A DNA stretch of 64,000 nt. It comes from Escherichia phage vB_Eco_OMNI12. Shown one piece after another: positions 35,484 to 64,000 of this stretch; within the stretch, counting starts at the first letter, position 1; the number at the start of each line of letters is the position of its first letter. The stretch lies in sequence record OL362041.1, one strand, 5' to 3'. A model generated the notes under the pieces. It was not told the origin of the DNA and did not search any database. It saw only the letters and a list, made by a program, of their open reading frames with translations. The translations under genes and the position numbers were made by a program.

Positions 35484-35732
35484 TTACTTCAGTGTTACCA
35501 CAAAGTGACGAACTGCTTTTCGTGCAGCAGAAGCCAGAGGCTTAGCATATTTAAGTTCATCTTTTTCCTGAAGCTCAGCAGCTAATGCAGTTTGAGCAGG
35601 ATTCAGATGTTTGAAATAACGCAGGATTTCAAGAGCTTCGGCTTCAACATCAATAGATGCGCCATAGTTTTCGTGACCATTATTCCATGCGTTTCGTTGC
35701 AGTTCAAGAGCGTGTTGTAATTGTTTAATCAT
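35484..35732 (-). CDS. rIII: rIII lysis-inhibition accessory protein
   Basis: 82 aa; sequence MIKQLQHALELQRNAWNNGHENYGASIDVEAEALE recognised as T4 rIII; position next to gene 31. Confidence 0.8.
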   Translation of the reverse strand: MIKQLQHALELQRNAWNNGHENYGASIDVEAEALEILRYFKHLNPAQTALAAELQEKDELKYAKPLASAARKAVRHFVVTLK

Positions 35733-35871: not shown

Positions 35872-35879
35872 TATTTATA
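35872..35879 (-). promoter_or_regulatory. candidate late promoter TATAAATA (minus strand) upstream of rIII
   Basis: TATTTATA on plus strand. Confidence 0.4.
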
Positions 35880-36215
35880 TCACTTATAAAGACATGGAAT
35901 AGCTTTATAGTGACAGGTAACGAATTTTTGTTTAATTTCTTTTGGCTGCTTAAGACCCAGAGCTACAAAAGGGTGTGGAACGTTTCGAATTTGACCAACT
36001 GGAAGAGAAGTCAAATCACCAACTTCACAGAAACCTTCAGGAACATCAGGACCGACAGAGTGAACTACACACAGTTCAGGAACTTCACCTTGAACACGTT
36101 TACCGATAATAAGTCCTGATTCTGTAACTTCTTCATCACCGGCTTGTGCAGGTTCAGAAACTAAAATAACATATTCACCGACAGCACGAATTGGTAGCTG
36201 TTGTACTTCAGACAT
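35880..36215 (-). CDS. 31: GroES-like co-chaperonin for capsid folding
   Basis: 111 aa as T4 gp31; N-terminus [19 protein letters not shown]. Confidence 0.85.
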
Positions 36216-36263
36216 CGTTTTTCCTTTTTGTTAACAGATGAATTAATAATAACAAATAATTCT

Positions 36264-36271
36264 TAAAGCAT
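36264..36271 (-). promoter_or_regulatory. candidate MotA box (ATGCTTTA) of a middle promoter for gene 31
   Basis: Match to (a/t)(a/t)TGCTT(t/c)A with TATTAT -10-like element about 13 bp downstream. Confidence 0.35.
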
Positions 36272-36580
36272 TTATTTACCAATAAATTGGAGCAAATGCT
36301 CAACTTTCATACCATTAACGGAAATCAATTTGTCAATAGAAAAACCTCGCCATGCACCAAGTTCAACATCAAATACTGGAATCATATCAGTAGATTCTTT
36401 CCGAGTAGATTCAGTCAATTTACCAGTTTGCATGGTTGGCATAAAGTCAGCATCGCGAGTACCTTTCATAACACGAATAGTACCATCAGACTTTTCAAAA
36501 ACTACGTTTGAAACACCCATGGACAATTTAGTTTTCAAAATTTCACGAATTGCTACTTTTTGTTCAGTCGTCAGTTTCAT
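36272..36580 (-). CDS. hypothetical protein (31.1-like position)
   Basis: 102 aa ORF. Confidence 0.5.
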   Translation of the reverse strand: MKLTTEQKVAIREILKTKLSMGVSNVVFEKSDGTIRVMKGTRDADFMPTMQTGKLTESTRKESTDMIPVFDVELGAWRGFSIDKLISVNGMKVEHLLQFIGK

Positions 36581-36817
36581 TTATTTACCTATTACAGTTT
36601 TAATATGAGTTGTTCCACGTTCTTTAAGAGTGGAAAGTAATTTTTGGCATTTTTCTAAATCAGATTTCCAACTATGTGGTCTATCAATACAAACCCAGTT
36701 TGACTTATAATACTGCTTCCATTTAGAGAAAAAATACTTCTTATACTCTACAGCAAATGAAATGTTCTCATTGGAATAAGAACTAATTGCTGTGAGCTGT
36801 ACCAAACGAAATTTCAT
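36581..36817 (-). CDS. hypothetical protein (31.2-like position)
   Basis: 78 aa ORF. Confidence 0.45.
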   Translation of the reverse strand: MKFRLVQLTAISSYSNENISFAVEYKKYFFSKWKQYYKSNWVCIDRPHSWKSDLEKCQKLLSTLKERGTTHIKTVIGK

Positions 36818-37398
36818 TATTCACCACAGAATTCGTTGATATTTTCCCAGTTTAACTTATTTAAGTTTTTCTTAGGAACATTAAACACTTCAATACCTGC
36901 ATTTCGCAGAATATCATCCCAGCCAGGTTTATTTTTATCGTATGTTTCACAATAAACCAGCTTTTTAATTCCAGATTGAGCTATTGCTTTTGCACAATCT
37001 GGGCAAGGAGAAAGTGTTACATACATAGTAGCACCTTCAATTGAAGAACCGTTTCGTGCAGCAAACAAAATCGCATTTAGTTCAGCATGAATTTCATTTT
37101 TAGACGACCATTCAGAGTGCGCGCTACGATGTTCTTTCGCCAATACAAAACGATCAGTTGAACCAAATGATACACATTCAGGCTTATGACCTTGAATGAT
37201 AGTATGTTTAGGTTTATTCAGCAACCAACCTTGCTCAGCAGCATAATCACAACAGTTCACACCACCTGCAGGTGAACCATTATATCCAGTAGAAATAATA
37301 CGTCCATTCTTTTCAATTACTGCTCCTACTTTCCAGGAGCAACATTTTGATTCTTGTGATACTAAATATGCAATTTGAAGTACTGTACTCGCTTTCAT
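36817..37398 (-). CDS. cd: dCMP deaminase
   Basis: 193 aa; zinc-binding HAELNA ... PCPDCA cytidine/dCMP deaminase motifs. Confidence 0.9.
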   Translation of the reverse strand: MKASTVLQIAYLVSQESKCCSWKVGAVIEKNGRIISTGYNGSPAGGVNCCDYAAEQGWLLNKPKHTIIQGHKPECVSFGSTDRFVLAKEHRSAHSEWSSKNEIHAELNAILFAARNGSSIEGATMYVTLSPCPDCAKAIAQSGIKKLVYCETYDKNKPGWDDILRNAGIEVFNVPKKNLNKLNWENINEFCGE

Positions 37399-37733
37399 TT
37401 CATAATCACCAGATAAGCAGATTTAGCAGTTTCAACACGATAAATTTCGTGACGAAGTTTAGTTATACTTTTAATAACAGAACTAATTATATTCTGCCCA
37501 TCTTTAAAGCGGTTTTTCTTATCAATAAAAATTGCACCAGCCATCTTTTTGTGAAGCTCAACTGGATACTTCGTCACAATAATAGCATCATACACAGAAG
37601 GATGAATACTATTCACTAGAGTATCGTTCATTAAAGTTATTCTAATGAACTGTGCTGTTTCAGAGTCAAGCGCTCTATGATCGCCAGTATCATTTTCAAG
37701 ACAATTATCAATTATATCAGTTAAATTCATCAT
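37395..37733 (-). CDS. hypothetical protein (cd.x block)
   Basis: 112 aa ORF. Confidence 0.45.
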   Translation of the reverse strand: MMNLTDIIDNCLENDTGDHRALDSETAQFIRITLMNDTLVNSIHPSVYDAIIVTKYPVELHKKMAGAIFIDKKNRFKDGQNIISSVIKSITKLRHEIYRVETAKSAYLVIMK

Positions 37734-37966
37734 AGTACGCCATACACCCTTTGTGCTTCAACTAATCCATCAAAATCCAATTTGAGATGTGTTATTTGGT
37801 CACCATCACCTGGATTCACAATTACTAATACCGAACGAGGAGTTTCGGTAATAACACGAACCGACGTTTCAGGAAATCGTTCAGAAACCTTATTTACCAA
37901 TTCTTGAGCAAATAGTTTAACTTTTTCTTGGAATTCTTTAACAGTAATTGGTTTTTCGCTTAGCAT
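37730..37966 (-). CDS. hypothetical protein (cd.x block)
   Basis: 78 aa ORF. Confidence 0.45.
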   Translation of the reverse strand: MLSEKPITVKEFQEKVKLFAQELVNKVSERFPETSVRVITETPRSVLVIVNPGDGDQITHLKLDFDGLVEAQRVYGVL

Positions 37967-38487
37967 GTTGATCCTAGCTCCTTACTTTCAACATTTTTAA
38001 CTAATTTGACAGAAACTAATTCAGCATCTTGGGTAATCATTACCGGACCTTCTTCATGCTCTTCAAGATATTCTAGAGCTTTCTTTTTAGCTTCTTCCTT
38101 CGTATCAGTTTGAGCATAGATATAGAACATACAACCAGTAATACCTACTACTTTCCACTTAATTTCTTTATCAGTTTTAATTTCAAATTTACTTACAGAA
38201 TCATCTTTTTGAACTTCTTCGAAAAAAGAATATTCTAACATATAAGCAATTGAAAATAACGGGCTAACTTTATAGGATTCACCCATTACATCAACAGCTT
38301 TATACCAACAATCATCAATTTCACGTTTAATGCTAATAACATTTTTCGCAGGATCTATTTTTACTTTAAATGAATTTTCCCCAATAAACTGGGCAATTCG
38401 TTTATTAGCCCCGCAAGTTTCATTAAAAATATCTTTATATCCAGCTTTAAAGCGATAAACCTTATCTTCTTCAAACCATTCGCTCAT
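37960..38487 (-). CDS. hypothetical protein (cd.x block)
   Basis: 175 aa ORF. Confidence 0.5.
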   Translation of the reverse strand: MSEWFEEDKVYRFKAGYKDIFNETCGANKRIAQFIGENSFKVKIDPAKNVISIKREIDDCWYKAVDVMGESYKVSPLFSIAYMLEYSFFEEVQKDDSVSKFEIKTDKEIKWKVVGITGCMFYIYAQTDTKEEAKKKALEYLEEHEEGPVMITQDAELVSVKLVKNVESKELGSTC

Positions 38488-38549
38488 TTCAATTTCCTCA
38501 TTTGTTTTGGTAGAGCTATAATATCACAACTCTACCGTAAAGTAAACTA

Positions 38550-38855
38550 TTAAATTGCTTTGAATTCTGATGTCTGTGATTCAAAGCGAATGTCGCCTTT
38601 GATAACTAGCTCAGCATCAAGACCAAATACAACAATGATATGCGCGGAACCTGGATACAACGTAATGGCAATAGAATCCACCTGGTCTGGAAGCAAAGCG
38701 TTCAATACATGAGTCACTTGAGCGTGGATTCGAAGTTCAGCTGCATTATCAAGCTTTTCAAACATGTTATTAGCGATAATTTGGCTAAACACTACTTCTA
38801 CGATTTTAGAGTAAGTCGGAAACATATTTACCTCACATAATTTTCTTCGAGCCAA
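38550..38855 (-). CDS. hypothetical protein (cd.x block)
   Basis: 101 aa ORF. Confidence 0.45.
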   Translation of the reverse strand: MARRKLCEVNMFPTYSKIVEVVFSQIIANNMFEKLDNAAELRIHAQVTHVLNALLPDQVDSIAITLYPGSAHIIVVFGLDAELVIKGDIRFESQTSEFKAI

Positions 38856-39020
38856 TCAATAACATCCAAAGCGTTATCAAAAGTTGCGCCATCTACTTTG
38901 TCTTCTGTTTCATAATCAAGAACATCTAGGCCTACTCTTCCGTCAACAATAGGCCATAGACAAAATAGATATTTCTTTTCTTTTTCAATTTTATCACAAA
39001 GACGATAAATCTTTTCTAGG

Positions 39021-39028
<8 letters not shown>
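38828..39028 (-). CDS. hypothetical protein
   Basis: 66 aa ORF. Confidence 0.4.
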
Positions 39029-40436
<1,408 letters not shown>

Positions 40437-40440
<4 letters not shown>

Positions 40441-40667
40441 TTATTTTTCTCAACTAATGATTGAATATAATCATGCAGGTCTTTAGATGCTTTACCCCAC
40501 TTATTTTGATATTCATTTTTGAGATTAGCACGGGATTGAGCTAATAAAACATCATTAGTTGGAGGTAAAGATTCTAACCGCTGAATCTGGCGTCCATAAA
40601 TCATTGCAGCCATCTCGGATTCATAAATCAATCCTTTGAGATGTTCAAATTGATGCCATGAAATCAT
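40437..40667 (-). CDS. hypothetical protein
   Basis: 76 aa ORF. Confidence 0.4.
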
Positions 40668-40963
40668 TTACATTTATCCTCTTTTAACTCTTGACGATAA
40701 TAACATATCATAGTTTTTTGGTCATGTACATATCGTTTTACATCATTAAGCCAAATACGAAATTCCTGAGAATCTTCAAATGGCATACCGACCCAAGCTT
40801 TACCATCAATAACTTTAACTTGCCAAGATAGTTTAGCTTCATCATATGACTTTATCTGTACAGGCCAATTAGGATGAACTGTTTCTTTCTTTACTTCTAG
40901 AGGCTTTGTCGAACAACCAGCTAGAAGACCGATAGATAATATTACTGCTGATAGTCTAATCAT
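40664..40963 (-). CDS. outer-membrane lipoprotein, candidate o-spanin
   Basis: 99 aa; signal peptide with lipobox LLAGC; sits immediately downstream of the TM/coiled-coil ORF. Confidence 0.55.
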   Translation of the reverse strand: MIRLSAVILSIGLLAGCSTKPLEVKKETVHPNWPVQIKSYDEAKLSWQVKVIDGKAWVGMPFEDSQEFRIWLNDVKRYVHDQKTMICYYRQELKEDKCK

Positions 40964-41313
40964 TTAGAAAGGTCCTGGATGTCTTCTGCGAACTTGTTGA
41001 AGGAGTTGTTGATTTGTTTTTCAACCAATCCTGGCTTACGAGCCACCACATCCGCCTTCTTTGCATCTTTGCGCAGTTTTTCATTTTCACGCTCAATAGC
41101 AGCAATCGCCTCACGATTTTTATTATTCATCGCATCAATATAATTATACTGAATTCGCAAATTATTTAATGCTAAGGCGTTTTCATTGGCCGTTTTTGTA
41201 ATTTCTACAACAGACGTTTCTAATCTTTCAATTTTATTTTTTAAAATTAAAGAAGTTCCGCCTAATGCAATTACAATTAATAGCAAACCTGCTGTCGTAT
41301 TACTTAATTGCAT
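40960..41313 (-). CDS. membrane-anchored coiled-coil protein, candidate i-spanin
   Basis: 117 aa; N-terminal hydrophobic helix GLLLIVIALGGTSLIL then charged heptad-like region. Confidence 0.55.
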   Translation of the reverse strand: MQLSNTTAGLLLIVIALGGTSLILKNKIERLETSVVEITKTANENALALNNLRIQYNYIDAMNNKNREAIAAIERENEKLRKDAKKADVVARKPGLVEKQINNSFNKFAEDIQDLSK

Positions 41314-41810
41314 AAAGTTTTAATAACCTCTATAATATCGTCTTGAGAAAGACCGTTAATTAAAATATGATGTTCAGCCGGAGATTTAGAAATTTTAAAG
41401 CATGCCTCAACATCTTCTGCCATATCCGATGCACTACGATTTGGATTACTAATTCCAAGACGATGCTTTCCAGTCAAAGGATTAACGATGATATAGCATT
41501 TACAACTATTGATATGAACATTAGGTTGAGTCTGATTAATAAATACATCACAATCATATTTCGCAAGCTGATTTTCTAAAAAGACTTTCATCTCTTCAAC
41601 CGCATCAGGAAGCATATCACGGGCTTGCTCAAGACGACGATTTCGATATTCTTTAATGGTCGTTTTCCGCTTGACTTGCTTAGCTAAATCTTTCTTAAGA
41701 TCGGTGATATATCCAACTCGACGGTTTCCTTTAAATACAGAAATCCCATCTGTAGTATCACCGTATGCTTCAACGACCATTTCAGTAGTAATGAGCTGCA
41801 AATCCATCAT
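41304..41810 (-). CDS. alc: Alc-like transcription terminator for cytosine-containing DNA
   Basis: 168 aa; position between the pseT.x block and rnlA as in T4; SD inside repeated hairpin element. Confidence 0.55.
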   Translation of the reverse strand: MMDLQLITTEMVVEAYGDTTDGISVFKGNRRVGYITDLKKDLAKQVKRKTTIKEYRNRRLEQARDMLPDAVEEMKVFLENQLAKYDCDVFINQTQPNVHINSCKCYIIVNPLTGKHRLGISNPNRSASDMAEDVEACFKISKSPAEHHILINGLSQDDIIEVIKTLCN

Positions 41811-41814
41811 AAAG

Positions 41815-41868
41815 TCCTCATGTTATGTCAGTAAGACTACTGTAACACAACACGAGGGACTTGTAAAC
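41815..41868 (-). repeat. 54-bp repeated hairpin element containing the SD of alc (copy B)
   Basis: 53/54 identical to 25868..25921. Confidence 0.8.
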
Positions 41869-41871
41869 AGC

Positions 41872-43459
<1,588 letters not shown>

Positions 43460-43486
43460 AATAAAATGGGCCTTGCGGCCCACTCC

Positions 43487-44665
43487 TTAAAAGTATTTTT
43501 TAAAACTCATCATAACTTTATCATCAACATCATTATCAATCTGTGCAACAAGATAAGATGACAGTTCTACTTCTTGTGGCGCTGATTGAACATTATCAGA
43601 ATTAAGATATTCACGAATCCAAGGATATGGATGTTTAACCGGAGCATCGGTAATTGGGCATGGAAGACCACACTGTTTCATACGAGATACAGTTAAGTAA
43701 TCAATAAAGCTCCACATGCTATTTGTATTTAATCCAGGAACATCGCCATCTTTAAATAAATGAACTGCCCAATCTTTTTCTTGGCGGTTAACTTCCATGA
43801 AAATATCAACTGCTTCTTGCTCGCACTCTTGAGCAATTTTAACCCATTCATCGCCATCAGTACCAGATTGAAGTTGACGAATAATATATTGTGTACCTTT
43901 AAGATGAAGCTGCTCATCACGTGCAATGAACTTCATAATCTTGGCATTACCTTCCATGATTTCCATGTTTTTATGGAAGTTAAAGGTACACGCAAAGGAT
44001 ACATAAAAACGAATAGCTTCTAATGCATTGATTACATGCAAACAGAGGTAAAGAGATTTCATTAGCTCACGCTTCCAATATGTCTCATGCTCAATAGCAT
44101 CTTCAATAACGTCTTCGTCTGCATTAATTTCTTTTTGGTATTCGATATCAGCTTTAGCGTTTTCCCAATAACGAGTTTTAATCAGAACATCATCATAATA
44201 ACGTCCAATGGATTCAGCACGTTTCATAATAGCTTCATCTAATACAATCTCATCAAATACCTTTGACGGATCAGTATAAAGATTTCGCATGATATGAGTG
44301 TATGAACGACTGTGAATAGTTTCACTAAAAGTCCATGTAGCAACCCATGTATCAAGGCTTGGGTCTGAAATTAACGACATAAGTACAGCAGATGGTGCAC
44401 GACCCTGAATGCTATCCAAAAGTGATTGATACTTCAAGTTGTTAGTAAAAATATTTTGCTGATACTGAGGAAGCTTATTAAACTGTGCAGCATCCATCAT
44501 TAAGTTTACTTCTTCCGGGCGCCAGAAAAATGATAAGGACTTTTCTGTAAGTTCTTCAAATACTCGATGCCGTTGAATATCATAACGCGCAATACCAAGA
44601 CCTGAACCAAAAAACATAGGTTCTTTTAAAACATCAACTGGATTTGTATTAAAAACTGTGCTCAT
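43487..44665 (-). CDS. nrdB: ribonucleotide reductase beta subunit, uninterrupted
   Basis: 392 aa continuous ORF with di-iron ligand motifs typical of class Ia R2. Confidence 0.9.
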   Translation of the reverse strand: MSTVFNTNPVDVLKEPMFFGSGLGIARYDIQRHRVFEELTEKSLSFFWRPEEVNLMMDAAQFNKLPQYQQNIFTNNLKYQSLLDSIQGRAPSAVLMSLISDPSLDTWVATWTFSETIHSRSYTHIMRNLYTDPSKVFDEIVLDEAIMKRAESIGRYYDDVLIKTRYWENAKADIEYQKEINADEDVIEDAIEHETYWKRELMKSLYLCLHVINALEAIRFYVSFACTFNFHKNMEIMEGNAKIMKFIARDEQLHLKGTQYIIRQLQSGTDGDEWVKIAQECEQEAVDIFMEVNRQEKDWAVHLFKDGDVPGLNTNSMWSFIDYLTVSRMKQCGLPCPITDAPVKHPYPWIREYLNSDNVQSAPQEVELSSYLVAQIDNDVDDKVMMSFKKYF

Positions 44666-44716
44666 AAATTTTCCGCTTAGTTAATAGTTGGTGACTCGTC
44701 CGTGAGTCAAATTATA

Positions 44717-46981
44717 TCATAATTTACAGGATGAACAATCTTCAGCTTTTGGAGTTTCTATTTCATAATCATCAGTACCAGAACCATCACGGGTATTATG
44801 ATAATAGAAATTTTTAATGCCATAATACCATCCGTATAGCATGTCATCAATCATTATTGACATTGGAACCTTTCCTTTTGGAAAAATCTGCGGGTCATAG
44901 TATGTATTCGCTGAAGCTGATTGACATACCCATTTCAGCATAATAGCTACCTGCGTAAGATAAGGTTTATTACCTTTCTTAGCTAATTTCCATGTATAAT
45001 CATAGAGGTCTATGTTATGCTCAATATTGGGCACGACTTGATTAAAGGAGCCCTCTTTTGATTCTTTAACAGAGACTGGTCCACGTGGAGGCTCGATACC
45101 GTTTGTACTGTTAGAAACTTGGGAAGATGACTCACATGGCATAAGTGCTGATAATGTGCTATTACGGATGCCAAAGAGCTTAAGGTCTTCCCGCAGCGCC
45201 GACCAGTCACAAACGTATTTTGGAGCTGCGATTTGGTCAATCTTTTTATTGTACCAGTCGATAGGTAATTCGCCTCGAGACCAACGAGTGTCTGAATAAT
45301 ATTCGCAAGGTCCTTTTTCTTTGGCGAGCTTAATGGATGCTTTAATGAGCCCATACTGTAATCTCTCAAATAGTTCATGTGTTAAATCGTTAGCATCTTC
45401 ATAAGAAGCAAAGTTACTTGCCAGCCAAGCTGCATAGTTGGTAACACCTACACCGAGGTTACGGCGCTTTTTAGCTTTTTCTGCTTCAGGAACTGGATAT
45501 CCTTGGTAATCCAAAAGATTATCAAGAGCACGAACTTGAACTTCTGCCAATTCATTAATTTTATCTTGGTCTTGCCAGTCAAAATTATCTAGTACGAATG
45601 CAGAGAGAGTACACAATCCAATTTCAGCATCAGGACTATTCACATCATTTGTTGGAATAGCAATTTCACAACACAAGTTGCTCTGACGAATAGGTGCCTT
45701 TTCACGAATAAACGGAGTATAGTTATTCGTATTATCTATGAACTGTACATAAATCCTTGCTGTTCCTGAGCGTTCAGTCATGAGTAATTCAAACAGTTCA
45801 CGGGCTTTAATACGCTTTTTACGAATATTAGGGTCTTTTTCTGCGGCTTCGTATAATTCACGGAAACGGTCTTGGTCTTTAAAATAAGAATAATAAAGCT
45901 CGCCACCCATTTCATGCGGACTGAACAAAGTAATGTAATCGTTCTTTCCAAAACGTTCCATCATCAAATCATTCAGCTGAACACCATAATCCATATGACG
46001 AATGCGGTTTTCTTCTACGCCTTTGTTATTTTTCAAAACGAGAAGATTTTCAACTTCCAAATGCCAAATAGGATAATAAGCAGTAGCAGCGCCGCCACGA
46101 ATTCCGCCCTGTGAACATGATTTAACAGCAGTCTGAAAATGTTTCCAAAAAGGAATAACACCAGTATGGCGTACTTCACCCATGCCAATCTTAGAACCTT
46201 CAGCACGAATCATACCAACGTTAATACCAATTCCAGCACGTTTGGAGATATATTCAACAATTGAAGCAGAAGCCTTATTAATAGACTTTAATGAATCACC
46301 TGCCTCAATAACAACGCATGAACTAAACTGCCGAGTTGGAGTACGGCAACCAGCCATAATAGGAGTTGGTAATGAAATCTGTCGAGTAGATACTGCTTCA
46401 TAAAAACGAATAACATGTTTTAATCTATCAACAGGTTCATCTTGATGCAATGCCATTCCAATAGTCATAAATGCAAACTGTGGAGTTTCATAAATTTGAC
46501 CAGTGGTTTTATCTTTAACTAGATATTTTTCTTTTAATTGCATCGCCCCGGAATAAGTAAATTCCATATCCCGCTCGTGCTTAATTTTTGATTCTAAAAA
46601 TGTAATTTCTTCTGCTGAATATTTTGACAATAATTCAGGGTCATATTTACCTTCATTTACACAGTAAGAAATATGGTCAATAAATGAACGTGGTTCATAC
46701 TGCCCATAAACATGCTTACGAAGAGCAAACATTAAACAGCGTGCAGCTACATATTGATAATCAGGTTCTTCAACCGAAATAGAATTCGCAGCGGCCTTAA
46801 TGACAATAGTCTGAATATCATCAGTTGTCATTCCATCACGGAGATAAGATTTAATATTTTCATATAATTCATAAGGATCTACTGATGTTCCCTCAGCTGC
46901 CCAAGATAAAACTTTAATAATTTTTTGTGGGTCAAAGCTCTGAGAAACACCACTACTTTTGATAACATTAATTAATTGCAT
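44717..46981 (-). CDS. nrdA: ribonucleotide reductase alpha subunit
   Basis: 754 aa; ATP-cone N-terminus and catalytic Cys motifs (NLCCEIAIP, CESSS). Confidence 0.9.
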   Translation of the reverse strand: MQLINVIKSSGVSQSFDPQKIIKVLSWAAEGTSVDPYELYENIKSYLRDGMTTDDIQTIVIKAAANSISVEEPDYQYVAARCLMFALRKHVYGQYEPRSFIDHISYCVNEGKYDPELLSKYSAEEITFLESKIKHERDMEFTYSGAMQLKEKYLVKDKTTGQIYETPQFAFMTIGMALHQDEPVDRLKHVIRFYEAVSTRQISLPTPIMAGCRTPTRQFSSCVVIEAGDSLKSINKASASIVEYISKRAGIGINVGMIRAEGSKIGMGEVRHTGVIPFWKHFQTAVKSCSQGGIRGGAATAYYPIWHLEVENLLVLKNNKGVEENRIRHMDYGVQLNDLMMERFGKNDYITLFSPHEMGGELYYSYFKDQDRFRELYEAAEKDPNIRKKRIKARELFELLMTERSGTARIYVQFIDNTNNYTPFIREKAPIRQSNLCCEIAIPTNDVNSPDAEIGLCTLSAFVLDNFDWQDQDKINELAEVQVRALDNLLDYQGYPVPEAEKAKKRRNLGVGVTNYAAWLASNFASYEDANDLTHELFERLQYGLIKASIKLAKEKGPCEYYSDTRWSRGELPIDWYNKKIDQIAAPKYVCDWSALREDLKLFGIRNSTLSALMPCESSSQVSNSTNGIEPPRGPVSVKESKEGSFNQVVPNIEHNIDLYDYTWKLAKKGNKPYLTQVAIMLKWVCQSASANTYYDPQIFPKGKVPMSIMIDDMLYGWYYGIKNFYYHNTRDGSGTDDYEIETPKAEDCSSCKL

Positions 46982-47298
46982 AAGTCCTCAACTTGAAAAT
47001 CGTCTTTAAACAATCGGTTAACTATATGAGCTATTATATCACCATGACACGGCTTTGGTTTACATGTGCATCCTAGCCTCATTCCACGTAAAGGCTCTAA
47101 ATGTGCTTTAGTTATTTCTCCGGATTTAATTCGACGTATAAAATCTTTTTTGAATAATTCAATGGCAGCCTCCCGGCTGCCAGCATCTTTACCGACGTAA
47201 TTTCCCCAAAATGTACCACGGTGAATATTAACATCAAAGTCGGATTTGTATTTATTCACTACCCGACATAGACGGCCCGCGCGGTGATAATTCGGCAT
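46972..47298 (-). CDS. DUF4326-like protein (nrdA.1 position)
   Basis: 108 aa; WGN...[12 protein letters not shown] pattern. Confidence 0.5.
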
Positions 47299-47515
47299 AT
47301 TGTTTTTCCGTTAAAACAGTAATATCGTAGTAACAGTCAGAAGAAGTTTTAACTGTGGAAATTTTATTATCAAAATACTCACGAGTCATTTTATGAGTAT
47401 AATATTTTTTGCCATAAATGATAATAGGCTGATTTGGTCCTGGAACTTCTAGCTCACTTGGATTAGGAAGTGTAAAAAGAACTACACCAGAAGTATCTTT
47501 AAATCGTAAAATCAT
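47252..47515 (-). CDS. hypothetical protein (nrdA.2 position)
   Basis: 87 aa ORF; 47-nt overlap with downstream ORF. Confidence 0.4.
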
Positions 47516-48372
47516 ATTGCCATTTTCCCTTTAATTGCTGGATGCGATTCATAATTTTCAAGGATAAAATCTTTCGGTTTCATGTATTCAGTTAACCAGT
47601 AAAGCTGTGTTTCGGTGTCACAATTTCCAAACTCTATAGGCCAATCAATTTTAAGTTCACATAGTTCTTTAGGCTCACGACGTAAAATTTCTTTACATTG
47701 CTCAGTATGATTCATATAGATGTGAGTATTACCACCAGAAAATATCAAATCTCCTGGGATAAGATTACACATCTTAGCCACAATATGCGTCAAGGCAGCG
47801 TACGAGGCAATGTTGAATGGCAATCCCAAGAAAACATCTACACTTCTTTGGTACCATTGTAAATCAAGATAACCATTACGCACATTAAACTGATAGAACA
47901 TATGACAGGGCGGTAATGCCATTTGATTGATTTCAGCTGGATTCCATGCTGAAACGATTTGACGTCGATCAGTTGGTAATTTTTTAATACGATCAATAGT
48001 TTCAACTAATTGATCCACACCGCCGAAATCACGCCATTGTTTACCGTATATAGGACCAAGTTCACCACTATGATATCCTAGGTCTTTAGCCTGGTTTTCA
48101 TAGTTATCGTCCCAAATAGTTTTACCTTGAATAAGACTACCATGTGTGCGAAGACGTAAATCATTAACATTGGTAGAACCGGAAATAAACCATAGAAGCT
48201 CAGCAATGCATGCATTCCATGCAAGCTTCTTAGTTGTTACCGCAGGAAAACCTTTAGTTAAATCCCAACGTAATTTAGTACCGAACAAAGCAATTGTTCC
48301 TGTGCCTGTTCGGTCATCGGTTTCATAGCCATTTTCAAAAATGTCTTTAATTAAATCTTGGTATTGTTTCAT
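47512..48372 (-). CDS. td: thymidylate synthase, uninterrupted
   Basis: 286 aa continuous ORF; catalytic PPCH motif ([11 protein letters not shown]). Confidence 0.9.
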
Positions 48373-48417
48373 TTAGTACCTTATATAAATTATAATACAT
48401 TTTATGAAGCTAAATAA

Positions 48418-48765
48418 TCAATACGGTTTAGCATCAAATTTTCTCTCAATTTCAGGCGTGAAATATAATTCTTTACCGCGTTTGGAAAAGCGACCAATAA
48501 TATGATAATTATTCTCATCAAACGTGATATTACCAATATCCATAGCTTTCAACCAAATATCGATATTTCTATCCAGCTTTATGTCAAAATTCCAATACGG
48601 AGAACTATTACCGAAAATACTGCAAGCGGATTCAGTGAAACAACTGCTATAAATCTTGTCTTTAGGAACTACTAATTGATAGACACCTTTAATAAACTGA
48701 GGACCCTGCCACTTTGGCTGTTTCGTGTCTTTTTCTAATAGAATAGGGTAATAATTAAAATTCAT
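48418..48765 (-). CDS. hypothetical protein between frd and td
   Basis: 115 aa ORF; no motif recognised. Confidence 0.45.
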   Translation of the reverse strand: MNFNYYPILLEKDTKQPKWQGPQFIKGVYQLVVPKDKIYSSCFTESACSIFGNSSPYWNFDIKLDRNIDIWLKAMDIGNITFDENNYHIIGRFSKRGKELYFTPEIERKFDAKPY

Positions 48766-48784
48766 ATTTCCGCCACGCGTTATT

Positions 48785-49611
<827 letters not shown>

Positions 49612-49621
49612 ATTATTTTCC

Positions 49622-49864
49622 TTAAACAGACTTTTTCACAATTTTCCAATCAGCTTTAAACTGATCGACGTCAGAGTGATAAATCCAAAATCCTGCGCTT
49701 TCACCGTCTTCATAAAGCGGACACCCATCACATTCATCTTCCCATCCCATGCCACGTAAAAGGTGTTCAGCTTTTTCAACAAGTTCAGAATCTTTACCGA
49801 TGATATTAAAATACCATTTACCTCTAACTTCTGAATCTTTGATGCTCTGGCGTTGTAATCTCAT
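49622..49864 (-). CDS. hypothetical protein (frd.2-like position)
   Basis: 80 aa ORF. Confidence 0.45.
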   Translation of the reverse strand: MRLQRQSIKDSEVRGKWYFNIIGKDSELVEKAEHLLRGMGWEDECDGCPLYEDGESAGFWIYHSDVDQFKADWKIVKKSV

Positions 49865-49874
49865 TTTATTCTCC

Positions 49875-49943
49875 TTAGCAAGCTTTAATCAAAAGATATA
49901 AACAGACCAACATAACTGCTGCCATAATATAAGGTGCGAACAT
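49875..49943 (-). CDS. candidate 22-aa hydrophobic micro-peptide (MFAPYIMAAVMLVCLYLLIKAC); not in the supplied ORF track
   Basis: Hand-translated; GGAG about 9 nt upstream of ATG. Confidence 0.3.
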   Translation of the reverse strand: MFAPYIMAAVMLVCLYLLIKAC

Positions 49944-50002
49944 TTTCTTTTCTCCATTAGTTTTGATAGGGTAATAGTATCACACTACTACCCTTCTGTA
50001 AA

Positions 50003-50368
50003 CTACTTTTTGAAAGTTTTTCGCAAAAGTTCAATGATTTCATCTACATTGTTTTCGTCAACAATGCAGTGAATTTTTGTTACGCCAGAAACTTTGTCTT
50101 TGACTTCATCTTCTTCAGAAGTCGGTTCTTTATACTCACGAAAACAATGAAATTCGTCTTCACAAACGTTAAAGTAAAAATGCTTTCCATTTGCGCATTC
50201 AATGTGTTTTATTACTCTAAATCCATCAACAAAGAAAGCTTCTTTAACTTCAAACCATCCGCCATTTTCTTGAATAATTTTAACTATTGCTGAATTAGAA
50301 CGTGGGCGATAATTAATAAATGTATCAATAAGTCTTGGAACAAGTTCATACTTTTTACCGATATACAT
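50003..50368 (-). CDS. hypothetical protein (frd.3-like position)
   Basis: 121 aa ORF. Confidence 0.45.
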   Translation of the reverse strand: MYIGKKYELVPRLIDTFINYRPRSNSAIVKIIQENGGWFEVKEAFFVDGFRVIKHIECANGKHFYFNVCEDEFHCFREYKEPTSEEDEVKDKVSGVTKIHCIVDENNVDEIIELLRKTFKK

Positions 50369-50412
50369 TATGTTTTCCTCATTTTAACGGGGCTGTAATA
50401 GCCCCTTGATAA

Positions 50413-50706
50413 TTATTGTTCAATCAATCCCATGTAAAATTCTGCGTCTTCAGAATCCATACCATCACAATATTCATTAGCCATAAAGCGGGTGAGGTCT
50501 TCAAGAGGACCTTCAATGACAATAGAAAAATTGCAATAATTGGGATCATCGTGAATACTTGTGATACTAAGTTCAGGATAACGATTACGAATAATTTCTT
50601 CGATATATTCAAAATCAACGATGTCAATATCAACTTTAGCCATATTATTTTCCTCTTTAATCATCAGCAGTATTGCCGATAGTTGTATAGTACCATGGAA
50701 GGACAA
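50413..50706 (-). CDS. hypothetical protein
   Basis: 97 aa ORF downstream of gene 32. Confidence 0.45.
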
Positions 50707-50747
50707 GGATGTAAACCGTTTTGTGAAAAAATTTTTGAAATAAAAAA

Positions 50748-50766
50748 GGGGACCTCTAGGGTCCCC
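50748..50766 (-). terminator. terminator downstream of gene 32
   Basis: GGGGACC-CTAG-AGGTCCCC then U6 on minus transcript. Confidence 0.75.
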
Positions 50767-50788
50767 AATTAATTAGTAATATAATCTG

Positions 50789-51697
50789 TTAAAGGTCATT
50801 CAAAAGGTCATCTAGATCCGTGTCATCAGCACTAGATGAACTGCCAGAGCTTGAGCTCATAAAATCATCTTCAGTTTTTGTTTTGAAGTCATCAACATTG
50901 AATGCATCCAAATCATCAGCAACTTTATCAGCTTTCTTAGCGGCAGTTGCAGCGGCACCACCCATTGCAGCAGTTCCCATAACTTGACTGAACTTAGTGC
51001 TCAGTTCTTCAAATGATTTGAATTTATCTTTAGAAGTCATTTCAGAAAGGTCAACCATTTGTTCGAACAGTTCTTTCTGGAAAGATTCATCGTCAATGTT
51101 TGGAATCGCAGATTGATTCAGGAATTTAGATTCGTCGTAGTTACTAAAACCAGAAACTTGTTTAACTTTCAGTACAAAGTTAGCACCTTCCCACGGACAA
51201 GTTACATCAACCGGAGTTTCACCCATTTCAACATCAACCGCAATCATTGCATTGATTTTATCCCAGATTTTCTTACCGAAACGATATTTAAATACTTTAC
51301 CTTCGTTTTCTGGAGCAGCTGGGTCTTTTACAACAAGAATGTTAGCCCAGTAAGAAGTTTTACGTTTAACAAGACTGTACTCTTTATTGTCAGTGTTGTA
51401 CAAATCATTTTTACTGATATACTGACATACTGGACAAGAATCGTAATCACCGTGGGTAGATGAACATGTTTCAATATACCATTTACCATTTTTCTTGAAA
51501 CCGTGATTTACAAGAATTGCGAATGGTGCTTGTTCATCATTTTTAGACGGAAGAAAACGAATTACTGCTTGACCGTTACCCGCATTATCGAGTTTCAGTT
51601 TCCACTCGCCTTTATCTTCAGAAGAAAAACCACCTTTATTTCCAGCCAGTTTAGCCATTTGTGCAGCGAGTTCAGCAGTAGATTTACGTTTAAACAT
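50789..51697 (-). CDS. 32: single-stranded DNA-binding protein
   Basis: 302 aa; zinc-binding Cys/His cluster and acidic Ser/Asp-rich C-terminus; T4-type leader and terminator. Confidence 0.9.
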
Positions 51698-51770
51698 TTT
51701 TATTTCCTTTTTAATTTAATTAACAGTTGGTGCTATGACGATGTATGACCTCATAGCTGGTCAGTGAGAT
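51698..51770 (-). promoter_or_regulatory. gene 32 autoregulatory translational operator / leader
   Basis: Minus transcript reads ...UUAAUUAAAUUAAAAAGGAAAUAAAAAUG as in T4 gene 32 leader. Confidence 0.6.
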
Positions 51771-51780
51771 AATTATAATC

Positions 51781-51788
51781 TATTTATA
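51781..51788 (-). promoter_or_regulatory. late promoter TATAAATA (minus strand) upstream of gene 32
   Basis: TATTTATA on plus strand. Confidence 0.55.
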
Positions 51789-62777: not shown

Positions 62778-63578
62778 ATGGCAGTAGTTGGTGTTCCTGG
62801 TTGGATTGGAAGTTCATCCGTAAATGAAACAGGGCAACGATGGATGAGTCAAGCGGCTGGTCAATTAAGATTGGGTGTTCCTTGCTGGATGAGTCAATTT
62901 GCAGGTCGCTCGCGAGAAATTATTCACACGCTTGGAGCAGACCATAACTTCAATGGTCAATGGTTCCGAGATAGATGTTTTGAGGCAGGTAGTGCACCTA
63001 TAGTGTTTAATATTACAGGTGATTTAGTATCATATTCTAAAGATGTTCCTTTATTCTTCATGTACGGGGATACGCCTAATGAATATGTTGTTCTTAATAT
63101 TCATGGCGGTGTTCATATGTGGGGTCGTGGTGGTAATGGTGGATACACTCACTCAGGAGGCGACGGTAACGGTACACAAGGCGGTCATGTTATTCAAAAT
63201 GATATCGGTGGACGGCTTCGTATTTGGAACTACGGTGTTATAGCTGCTGGCGGTGGCGGCGGTGGTGGTATTGCATATCGTCCACACTCAGGGGCAAACT
63301 GGCAAGATATCGGTGGCGGTGGTGGTCGACCTTTCGGTGCCGCGGGCGGTGGCGGTTATTCCGGTGGTGCTGCTTCGTATGAAGGTCCGGGTGGTGGTTA
63401 TGACTATGGTAACGCACACTCCGGCGCAGGTGGTAATGCTGGTGCTGCTGGTCAGAATGCATGGTCTGACGGCGGTAAAGTTCTTAAAGTTGGTGTTGGT
63501 GGTGCGTCTGGTCATGCAGTGTTTGGGTCTTCTCCAACTTGGGGTGCTGTTGGAACAATTTACGGACCAAGAGTATAA
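62778..63578 (+). CDS. 38: T2-type receptor-recognising adhesin gp38 with glycine-rich motifs
   Basis: 266 aa; poly-Gly motifs ([25 protein letters not shown]) separating short variable segments. Confidence 0.8.
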
Positions 63579-63608: not shown

Positions 63609-64000
63609 ATGGCAGCACCTAGAATATCATTTTCGCCCTCTGATATTCTGTTTGGTGTTCTAGATCGCTTGTTCAAAGATAACGCTACCGGGAAGGTTCT
63701 TGCTTCCCGAGTAGCTGTCGTAATTCTTTTATTTATGATGGCGATTGTTTGGTATAGGGGAGATAGTTTCTTTGAGTACTATAAGCAATCAAAGTATGAA
63801 ACATACAGTGAAATTATTGAAAAGGAAAGAAATGCACGCTTTGAATCTGTCGCCCTGGAACAACTCCAGATAGTTCATATATCATCTGAGGCAGACTTTA
63901 GTGCGGTGTATTCTTTCCGCCCTAAAAACTTAAACTATTTTGTTGATATTATAGCATATGAAGGAAAATTACCTTCAACAATAAGTGAAAAATCACTTGG
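63609..64000 (+). CDS. t: holin t, N-terminal part (3' end outside window)
   Basis: Hand-translated MAAPRISFSPSDILFGVLDRLFKDNATGKVLASRVAVVILLF matches T4 holin; frame open to window end. Confidence 0.85.
   Translation, partial: MAAPRISFSPSDILFGVLDRLFKDNATGKVLASRVAVVILLFMMAIVWYRGDSFFEYYKQSKYETYSEIIEKERNARFESVALEQLQIVHISSEADFSAVYSFRPKNLNYFVDIIAYEGKLPSTISEKSL

What the first reader, a model, noticed from the sequence alone, without database searches (positions are those of the whole stretch)
40664..41313. Candidate two-component spanin pair located far from holin t
A 117-aa protein with an N-terminal transmembrane helix and coiled-coil body is followed, with a 4-nt overlap, by a 99-aa lipoprotein with a LLAGC lipobox. 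This is the i-spanin/o-spanin architecture, embedded in the pseT-alc block rather than next to the holin, as reported for T4 pseT.3/pseT.2 from memory.
Basis: partly seen in the sequence, partly recalled or inferred. Interest (0 to 1): 0.35.

Follow-up and report, generated by a model that had tools for sequence, protein, structure and literature searches.

The report
T4-type spanin gene pair (pseT.3/pseT.2)
These two small adjacent genes are near-identical copies of the phage T4 spanin pair PseT.3/PseT.2, which breaks the host outer membrane in the last step of lysis, so the finding is correct but ordinary.

Summary
On the minus strand, ORF 41313..40960 encodes a 117-aa protein with one N-terminal transmembrane segment and a long helical body. 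ORF 40963..40664 encodes a 99-aa lipoprotein precursor with lipobox LLAGC (Cys17). The two overlap by 4 nt (ATGA).

The window is a Tequatrovirus (T4-like) genome segment. The proteins are 91% and 97% identical to T4 PseT.3 and PseT.2. They sit in the same rnlA-alc-pseT.3-pseT.2-pseT.1-pseT order and match the PHROG 'Rz-like spanin' families at E 4e-37 and 1e-42.

T4 pseT.3/pseT.2 have been shown to complement a lambda Rz-am Rz1-am lysis defect. PseT.2 Cys87 and Cys98 are essential for that function (Kongari et al. 2018, PMC6139136), and both are present here.

The holin gene t begins at 63609, about 22 kb away, and is cut by the window end. So 'far from the holin' is also correct, and it is a published feature of T4.

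The pair keeps its transmembrane segment, lipobox and C-terminal cysteine pair in seven more distant phages I examined.

The parts
40960..41313 (-). i-spanin gene, orthologue of T4 pseT.3 (117 aa)
   Evidence: ORF. 91% identical to T4 PseT.3. PHROG 739 'Rz-like spanin' E 4.3e-37. Annotated i-spanin in MZ501096.
41242..41298 (-). Codons 6-24 of the i-spanin: the single N-terminal transmembrane segment (TTAGLLLIVIALGGTSLIL)
   Evidence: Kyte-Doolittle 19-residue maximum of 2.11. An N-terminal hydrophobic segment is kept in all 8 orthologues examined.
41134..41241 (-). Codons 25-60 of the i-spanin: the heptad-repeat (coiled-coil-prone) part of the long periplasmic helix alpha1
   Evidence: 80% core hydrophobics at heptad positions a/d, p about 0.002 against shuffles. 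AF2 helix 2-91 with pLDDT above 90. Kongari 2018 reports that only alpha1 is coiled-coil prone.
40966..41034 (-). Codons 94-116 of the i-spanin: C-terminal helix alpha2 after the KPG break. With the preceding VVA-x-KPG motif this is the most conserved stretch, and it is the inferred contact site for the o-spanin
   Evidence: AF2 helix 94-116. The motif VVAxKPGLVEKQINxSFxxFAxD is conserved from T4 to Aeromonas phiAS5 and RB16. The contact role is an inference.
40960..40963 (-). ATGA overlap of the i-spanin stop codon and the o-spanin start codon, consistent with translational coupling
   Evidence: Sequence. The same arrangement occurs in T4, RB14, Mosigvirus, the Klebsiella phage and RB16.
40664..40963 (-). 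o-spanin gene, orthologue of T4 pseT.2 (99-aa precursor, 83-aa mature lipoprotein)
   Evidence: ORF. 97% identical to T4 PseT.2. PHROG 812 'Rz-like spanin' E 1e-42. Annotated o-spanin or Rz1 in many records.
40913..40927 (-). Lipobox L13-L14-A15-G16-C17 (CTT CTA GCT GGT TGT). Cys17 is the predicted lipidated first residue of the mature protein, and Ser18 at +2 implies outer-membrane sorting
   Evidence: Pattern match. Cys17 aligns with the lipobox Cys in all orthologues, and the +2 residue is always Ser or Ala.
40703..40705 (-). Codon for Cys87 of the o-spanin
   Evidence: Present here. Essential in T4 PseT.2. Conserved in all orthologues examined.
40670..40672 (-). Codon for Cys98 of the o-spanin
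   Evidence: Present here. Essential in T4 PseT.2. Conserved in all orthologues examined.
41839..41867 (-). Candidate early-type promoter (GTTTACA, 17-nt spacer, TACAGT with a TG extension) upstream of alc. It probably feeds the alc-pseT.3-pseT.2 unit. This is context and is inferred only
   Evidence: Consensus scan. The number of promoter-like sites in the region is no higher than in shuffles, so this is weak on its own.
63609..64000 (+). 5' part of holin gene t (130 codons, cut by the window end). Shown as context for the 'far from the holin' statement
   Evidence: Translation. PHROG 860 holin E 5.5e-57, profile positions 2-127 of 215.

Best explanation

The 117-aa protein is anchored in the inner membrane by its N-terminal transmembrane helix. 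It projects a long helix (alpha1, partly coiled-coil) and a short conserved C-terminal helix (alpha2) into the periplasm.

The 99-aa protein is exported. It is lipidated on Cys17 after signal peptidase II cleavage and sorted to the inner leaflet of the outer membrane, because Ser rather than Asp is at +2. Its 83-aa periplasmic domain binds the C-terminal part of the i-spanin, so the complex spans the periplasm through the peptidoglycan mesh.

Cys87 and Cys98 form disulfides that isomerise to intermolecular o-spanin links. Holin T triggers and endolysin E then removes the peptidoglycan. The freed complexes are thought to change conformation, pull the inner and outer membranes together and fuse them. 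That destroys the outer membrane and releases progeny.

Shown here: the anatomy, the orthology, the synteny and the conservation.
Shown in the literature for the T4 orthologues: complementation of lambda Rz/Rz1 and the cysteine requirement.
Inferred: topology, lipidation, the contact surface and the fusion mechanism for this particular allele.
For: - ORFs, overlap, transmembrane segment, lipobox and cysteines.
- Helical rod with a KPG break and heptad periodicity in residues 25-60.
- 91% and 97% identity to T4 PseT.3 and PseT.2.
- PHROG 739 and 812 'Rz-like spanin', E 4e-37 and 1e-42.
- Same gene order as T4, RB14 and Paracelsus. About 500 Tequatrovirus records are at least 90% identical over the locus.
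- Experimental evidence for T4: pseT.3/pseT.2 are functionally equivalent to Rz/Rz1 in a lambda Rz-am Rz1-am lysogen. The C87S and C98S alleles are lysis-defective. Disulfide-linked PseT.2 dimers form only when PseT.3 is present (PMC6139136).
- The membrane-fusion model is taken from the same paper.
- Transmembrane segment, lipobox, +2 Ser/Ala and the C-terminal Cys pair are conserved in Mosigvirus, Kanagawavirus, a Klebsiella T4-like phage, Aeromonas phiAS5, RB16 and a T5-like Erwinia phage.
- Purifying selection against T4: pN/pS about 0.32 for the i-spanin and about 0.09 for the o-spanin, from small counts.
Against: Nothing substantive. Minor caveats:
- No Pfam or NCBIfam model covers either protein, so family assignment rests on PHROGs and direct orthology.
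- The i-spanin of this window, like that of T4, has no Lys or Arg before the transmembrane segment, while K25, K27 and R30 follow it. The positive-inside rule therefore does not by itself predict the required N-in/C-out topology.
- The single-sequence o-spanin model is poor (pLDDT 48.9), so its fold is not established here.
- No TATAAATA late-promoter consensus lies on the coding strand anywhere between 35879 and 51781. Expression timing relative to the late holin and endolysin is therefore not explained by the sequence.
- This exact allele (10 substitutions in the i-spanin and 2 in the o-spanin relative to T4) has not itself been tested.
Confidence: 0.95

Rival explanations
1. The pair is a membrane protein plus lipoprotein with a different main job. 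One example would be superinfection exclusion or receptor masking, as done by the lipoproteins Llp of T5 or Cor of phi80-like phages. On this reading the spanin annotation is only a by-product of architecture.
For: The genes lie in an early/middle-type block (alc, pseT, rnlA) with no late-promoter consensus on their strand for about 10 kb upstream. They are 22 kb from the holin. No curated Pfam or NCBIfam spanin model hits them.
Against: The T4 orthologues (91% and 97% identical) fully replace lambda Rz/Rz1 in lysis, and point mutations of the conserved cysteines abolish this. The pair always travels together, with transmembrane segment, lipobox and Cys pair conserved. That is what a periplasm-spanning complex needs, whereas an exclusion lipoprotein acts alone. 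A second, additional role is not excluded.
Confidence: 0.03
2. The ORFs are decaying or non-functional remnants, or chance ORFs, in this particular phage.
For: None beyond the fact that this allele has not been tested. Small ORFs are common in AT-rich phage DNA (one search lists many spurious ones).
Against: Both ORFs are full length and colinear with T4, without gaps. All functional residues are retained. pN/pS is below 1. Profile E-values are around 1e-40. Hundreds of near-identical intact copies exist.
Confidence: 0.01

Closest known systems
Phage T4 PseT.3 / PseT.2 two-component spanin ('separated' architecture; Kongari et al. 2018, PMC6139136; first proposed by Summer et al. 2007, J Mol Biol, cited from my own knowledge)
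   Same: Same lengths (117 and 99 aa). 91% and 97% identity. Same ATGA overlap. Same position between alc and pseT.1. No Cys in the i-spanin. Cys17, Cys87 and Cys98 in the o-spanin. Same alpha1-KPG-alpha2 layout.
   Different: The i-spanin has 10 substitutions. Nine lie in residues 2-36, in and around the transmembrane segment, where the window resembles RB14 more than T4. The tenth is H92R. The o-spanin has K3R and lipobox LLAGC instead of LLVGC; T4 residue 86 is ambiguous (X) in the record. None of these touches a residue known to be required.
Phage lambda Rz / Rz1 spanin
   Same: Same functional class and overall logic: a type II inner-membrane protein with a helical periplasmic domain plus a small outer-membrane lipoprotein. 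T4 orthologues of this pair substitute for Rz/Rz1 in vivo.
   Different: No sequence homology was detected. There are no hits to any Pfam family above its cut-off, and only weak PHROG 214 and 89 hits (E 8e-6 and 3e-3) that may reflect coiled-coil composition. The genes here are side by side, whereas Rz1 is embedded within Rz. The disulfide cysteines are only in the o-spanin and both are required. The o-spanin is predicted to be structured (beta-alpha-beta), whereas Rz1 is proline-rich and unstructured (low-confidence model). The genes are not in a lysis cassette.
T5-like (Demerecviridae) spanin pair, e.g. Erwinia phage KEY key_118/key_119
   Same: The o-spanin is a detectable homologue (32% identity, E 6e-8). 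Its lipobox, the central 'V-x-P-[FY]-x-D' segment and the C-terminal C-x10-C pair all align.
   Different: It comes from a different virus family. The genes overlap by 40 nt. The i-spanin carries two C-terminal cysteines and lacks the KPGLVEKQIN motif.

Membership tests
Two-component spanin (functional class, lambda Rz/Rz1 paradigm) | i-spanin: small protein with a single N-terminal transmembrane domain | tested here: met
   Residues 6-24, Kyte-Doolittle 19-residue mean 2.11, and no other hydrophobic segment.
Two-component spanin (functional class, lambda Rz/Rz1 paradigm) | i-spanin topology is N-in/C-out (type II), so that the C-terminal domain is periplasmic | tested here: inconclusive
   There is no Lys or Arg before the transmembrane segment, and K25, K27 and R30 follow it, so the positive-inside rule gives no clear call. 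More distant orthologues do carry a Lys before the segment. No topology predictor was available. The topology is implied by the function of the T4 orthologue.
Two-component spanin (functional class, lambda Rz/Rz1 paradigm) | Periplasmic domain of the i-spanin is mainly alpha-helical, usually with coiled-coil propensity | tested here: met
   AF2 helices 2-91 and 94-116, pLDDT 89.4. Heptad register in residues 25-60, p about 0.002.
Two-component spanin (functional class, lambda Rz/Rz1 paradigm) | o-spanin: signal peptidase II signal sequence with a lipobox and an invariant Cys | tested here: met
   VILSIGLLAGC at residues 7-17 matches the PROSITE-style lipoprotein rule, with R3 in the n-region. 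Conserved in orthologues. Lipidation itself was not tested.
Two-component spanin (functional class, lambda Rz/Rz1 paradigm) | Outer-membrane sorting: no Lol-avoidance Asp at +2 of the mature lipoprotein | tested here: met
   The +2 residue is Ser18. It is Ser or Ala in all orthologues examined. The sorting rule itself is established E. coli knowledge.
Two-component spanin (functional class, lambda Rz/Rz1 paradigm) | The two genes are adjacent, in embedded, overlapped or separated architecture | tested here: met
   Adjacent on the same strand with a 4-nt ATGA overlap. Kongari et al. classify the T4 pair as 'separated'.
Two-component spanin (functional class, lambda Rz/Rz1 paradigm) | At least one periplasmic Cys available for homotypic intermolecular disulfide bonds | tested here: met
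   Cys87 and Cys98 in the o-spanin and none in the i-spanin. This is the commonest '0 + 2' pattern.
Two-component spanin (functional class, lambda Rz/Rz1 paradigm) | Required for outer-membrane disruption; complements a lambda Rz-am Rz1-am lysis defect | not testable with these tools
   Shown experimentally for the T4 orthologues, which are 91% and 97% identical (PMC6139136). Not shown for this allele.
T4 PseT.3 / PseT.2 sequence families (PHROG 739 / PHROG 812) | Significant full-length sequence similarity to family members | tested here: met
   BLASTP E 4e-79 and 4e-74 against the T4 proteins. PHROG E 4.3e-37 and 1e-42, full-length.
T4 PseT.3 / PseT.2 sequence families (PHROG 739 / PHROG 812) | Conserved genomic position between alc/rnlA and pseT | tested here: met
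   Same order in T4, RB14, Paracelsus, Mosigvirus, PEi20, Klebsiella M198 and RB16.
Lambda Rz / Rz1 sequence families (homology, not function) | Match to the curated Rz or Rz1 protein family models | tested here: not met
   Neither protein has a Pfam hit above its cut-off. The 99-aa protein has no Pfam hit at all, and the 117-aa protein has only sub-threshold coiled-coil hits. NCBIfam gives none. The pair is a functional analogue of Rz/Rz1, not a demonstrable homologue.

The most novel reading that the evidence does not exclude
The spanin genes sit in an early/middle-type transcription block. They have no late-promoter consensus on their strand for about 10 kb upstream. The i-spanin also lacks the usual positive charge before its transmembrane segment. 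Together these leave open that T4-type spanin complexes are made and installed well before holin triggering. They might then have a second role, for example in envelope stability during lysis inhibition or in superinfection. Nothing here supports this directly; the evidence simply does not exclude it.
Probability: 0.05. Interest if true: 0.35.

Novelty: already known. Interest (0 to 1): 0.05.

Why it matters
It matters little beyond correct annotation. Many deposited Tequatrovirus genomes still label one or both genes 'hypothetical protein', so recognising the pair helps annotation and phage-engineering work. The biology is already published for T4: the spanin function, the separation from the holin and endolysin genes, and the cysteine requirement.

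Tried and rejected
- **Pfam and NCBIfam scans of both proteins.** Nothing passed a curated cut-off. Only PHROGs carries models for these families.
- **Sequence search of the PDB.** No solved relative for either protein; best E-values were 0.23 and 0.37, which is noise.
- **Single-sequence AlphaFold2 of the o-spanin.** The model was poor (pLDDT 48.9), so I did not run a fold search on it. Its strand-helix-strand order agrees with the published prediction, but it is not evidence.
- **Promoter and terminator scans around the locus.** Counts were no higher than in shuffles.
- **Late-promoter and MotA-box searches.** No exact T4 late-promoter motif and no MotA-box/-10 combination was found on the coding strand upstream. 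Expression timing could not be read from the sequence.
- **Literature search for other work on pseT.3/pseT.2.** Only three papers in the held library mention them, and only one is experimental. The HIDEN-SEQ preprint says nothing specific about the T4 spanins in its main text.
- **Chance ORFs or pseudogenes.** Considered and rejected.

Full report
**What is there**

Two ORFs lie head to tail on the minus strand.
- 41313..40960 encodes 117 aa.
- 40963..40664 encodes 99 aa.

The stop codon of the first and the start codon of the second share the tetranucleotide ATGA at 40960-40963.

The 117-aa protein:
- It has one strongly hydrophobic segment, residues 6-24 (TTAGLLLIVIALGGTSLIL, Kyte-Doolittle mean 2.11), and no cysteine.
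- A single-sequence AlphaFold2 model is confident (mean pLDDT 89.4). It is almost entirely helical: helix 2-91, a break at Lys-Pro-Gly, and helix 94-116.
- A simple heptad test finds a register in residues 25-60 with 80% core hydrophobic residues at positions a/d, against 51% +/- 7% in shuffles (p about 0.002). Residues 60-91 show no significant heptad pattern.

The 99-aa protein:
- It starts with a typical lipoprotein signal, MIRLSAVILSIGLLAGC. The lipobox is LLAGC, with Cys17 followed by Ser18.
- It has two further cysteines, at 87 and 98.

The one refinement is that coiled-coil character covers only the first half of the helical rod.

**Where the window comes from**

The 1.6-kb stretch around the locus matches about 500 phage records at 95-99% identity. 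Nearly all are Tequatrovirus (T4-like phages of Escherichia, Shigella and Yersinia). The best matches reach 99.0%, for example Escherichia phage Paracelsus. Identity to T4 itself over the two genes is 95.1%.

In Paracelsus the genes are annotated i-spanin and o-spanin. In RB14 and T4 RefSeq they are pseT.3 and pseT.2, 'Rz-like spanin'.

The local order is that of T4: rnlA, alc (Pfam ALC, E 1.4e-91), pseT.3, pseT.2, pseT.1, pseT (polynucleotide kinase). The one difference is an extra 106-aa ORF between pseT.1 and pseT, which T4 lacks and RB14 has.

[quoted passage not shown] They match PHROG 739 and PHROG 812, both 'Rz-like spanin', at E 4.3e-37 and 1e-42 over their full length.

**What is known about the orthologues**

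All of the following comes from Kongari et al. 2018 (BMC Bioinformatics 19:326, PMC6139136), read.
- T4 PseT.3/PseT.2 are described as the paradigm of 'separated' two-component spanins.
- pseT.3 and pseT.2 complement the lysis defect of a lambda Rz-am Rz1-am lysogen as well as Rz/Rz1 do.
- PseT.3 has no cysteine. PseT.2 has Cys87 and Cys98, and single or double Cys-to-Ser changes abolish lysis.
- The paper predicts two helices joined by a very short linker in PseT.3, with only alpha1 coiled-coil prone. It predicts a beta-alpha-beta organisation in PseT.2. Both agree, and at low confidence.
- The mature o-spanin is given as 83 aa, which equals 99 minus the 16-residue signal peptide found here.

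**Mechanism**

The model comes from the same paper and from established knowledge of lambda Rz/Rz1.
- The i-spanin sits in the inner membrane and the lipidated o-spanin in the outer membrane.
- Their periplasmic domains bind each other through the peptidoglycan mesh.
- Once the holin has triggered and the endolysin has removed the peptidoglycan, the complexes are free to move and change conformation.
- They then fuse the two membranes, which removes the last barrier to progeny release.

For this window, the anatomy and orthology are shown. Topology, lipidation, the contact surface and fusion are inferred.

**Conservation**

A tblastn search with the lipoprotein finds 1,195 phage records. I fetched seven increasingly distant loci: Mosigvirus, Kanagawavirus PEi20, a Klebsiella T4-like phage, Aeromonas phiAS5, RB16 and a T5-like Erwinia phage, in addition to RB14.

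In every locus an ORF with an N-terminal hydrophobic segment directly precedes a lipoprotein ORF. In every locus the lipobox Cys, a Ser or Ala at +2, and the two C-terminal cysteines are aligned. The cysteine spacing is C-x10-C, or C-x7-C in RB16.

The most conserved part of the i-spanin is the C-terminal VVA-x-KPGLVEKQIN-x-SF-x-x-FA-x-D stretch. I take this as the likely o-spanin contact, which is an inference.

Against T4, both genes show more synonymous than non-synonymous change per site. pN/pS is about 0.32 for the i-spanin and 0.09 for the o-spanin, from small counts. Nine of the ten i-spanin substitutions lie in residues 2-36, in and around the membrane anchor. There the window resembles RB14 rather than T4.

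**Location relative to other lysis genes**

- Holin gene t begins at 63609 on the plus strand, directly after a T2-type gp38 gene, and is cut by the window end. Its 130 codons match PHROG 860 'holin' at E 5.5e-57. That is 22.3 kb from the spanin pair and on the other strand.
- rIII, a lysis-inhibition accessory gene, lies at 35484-35732.
- The endolysin gene e is outside the window.

So the lysis genes are scattered, as in T4.

**Loose ends**

1. No exact T4 late-promoter motif (TATAAATA) lies on the coding strand between 35879 and 51781, and 1-mismatch versions are unconvincing. An early-type promoter-like site lies just upstream of alc at 41867..41839. The pair therefore appears to belong to an early/middle transcription unit, but the scans are weak evidence and I found no expression data in the held literature.
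2. The i-spanin of the window and of T4 has no basic residue before the transmembrane segment, and three basic residues just after it. More distant orthologues have a Lys before the segment. The N-in/C-out topology that function requires is thus not predicted by the positive-inside rule alone.

Neither point challenges the spanin assignment.

**Comparison with known families**

The pair is a member of the T4 PseT.3/PseT.2 families by sequence, synteny and every testable defining feature. It works like lambda Rz/Rz1 but is not demonstrably homologous to them. There is no Pfam or NCBIfam hit above a cut-off. The only links are weak PHROG 214 and 89 matches that may be compositional. No solved structure exists for a relative.

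**Verdict**

Interest is low (0.05). Confidence in the spanin explanation is 0.95.

Noticed in passing
window 40120-40440 (-): A 106-aa ORF lies between pseT.1 and pseT. T4 lacks it (there pseT.1 abuts pseT), but RB14 (RB32ORF217c-like) and Paracelsus have it. It matches PHROG 2364, unknown function. The 'putative homing endonuclease' label in MZ501096 has no Pfam or NCBIfam support.
   Followed up: partly
window 37960-38487 (-): A 175-aa ORF lies between cd.2 and cd.3 and is absent from T4 at this position. It is annotated 'putative homing endonuclease' in Paracelsus. It has no Pfam or NCBIfam hit and matches PHROG 3710, unknown function. It may be a mobile insertion.
   Followed up: partly
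window 41242-41313 (-), i-spanin residues 1-30: The i-spanin of the window and of T4 has no Lys or Arg N-terminal to the transmembrane segment, and K25, K27 and R30 follow it. Orthologues in Mosigvirus, the Klebsiella phage, phiAS5, RB16 and KEY all have a Lys before the segment. The positive-inside signal for the required N-in topology is weak.
   Followed up: partly
window 35879-51781, minus strand: No exact T4 late-promoter motif TATAAATA occurs on the minus strand across this 16-kb block, which contains the spanin genes. Most of the 18 exact matches in the window precede plus-strand structural genes. The spanin genes apparently have no late promoter of their own.
   Followed up: partly
window 35484-35732 (-) and 63609-64000 (+): Two other lysis-related genes are in the window. 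One is rIII, a lysis-inhibition accessory gene (PHROG 1457, E 4.7e-44). The other is the 5' 130 codons of holin t (PHROG 860, E 5.5e-57), which is truncated by the window end.
   Followed up: yes
window 62778-63578 (+): gp38 is the T2/T6-type tail-fibre adhesin (Pfam GP38 PF05268, E 2e-68, plus Gp38_N). From my own knowledge this differs from the T4-type gp38 chaperone. So the phage is T2-like in receptor recognition although T4-like overall.
   Followed up: no
L006 (Edwardsiella phage PEi20, AP014714.1) 1501-1788: The annotated pseT.2 start (VTGCSQ...) cuts off the signal peptide. The reading frame continues upstream to MNLKVAAICLSVLVTGC, which restores a normal lipoprotein signal. This is a likely start-codon mis-annotation in the public record.
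   Followed up: partly
L010 (Erwinia phage KEY, MZ616364.1) 1076-1821: This T5-like (Demerecviridae) phage has an unannotated spanin pair, two 'hypothetical proteins' that overlap by 40 nt. Its o-spanin is a detectable homologue of T4 PseT.2 (32% identity, E 6e-8) with the C-terminal Cys pair conserved. Its i-spanin is not obviously related and carries two C-terminal cysteines.
   Followed up: partly
window 41872-43032 (-): The mechanical ORF for rnlA starts at a GTG 12 codons upstream of the ATG used in annotated relatives (MQELFNN..., 374 aa). The extension is probably an ORF-calling artefact.
   Followed up: no
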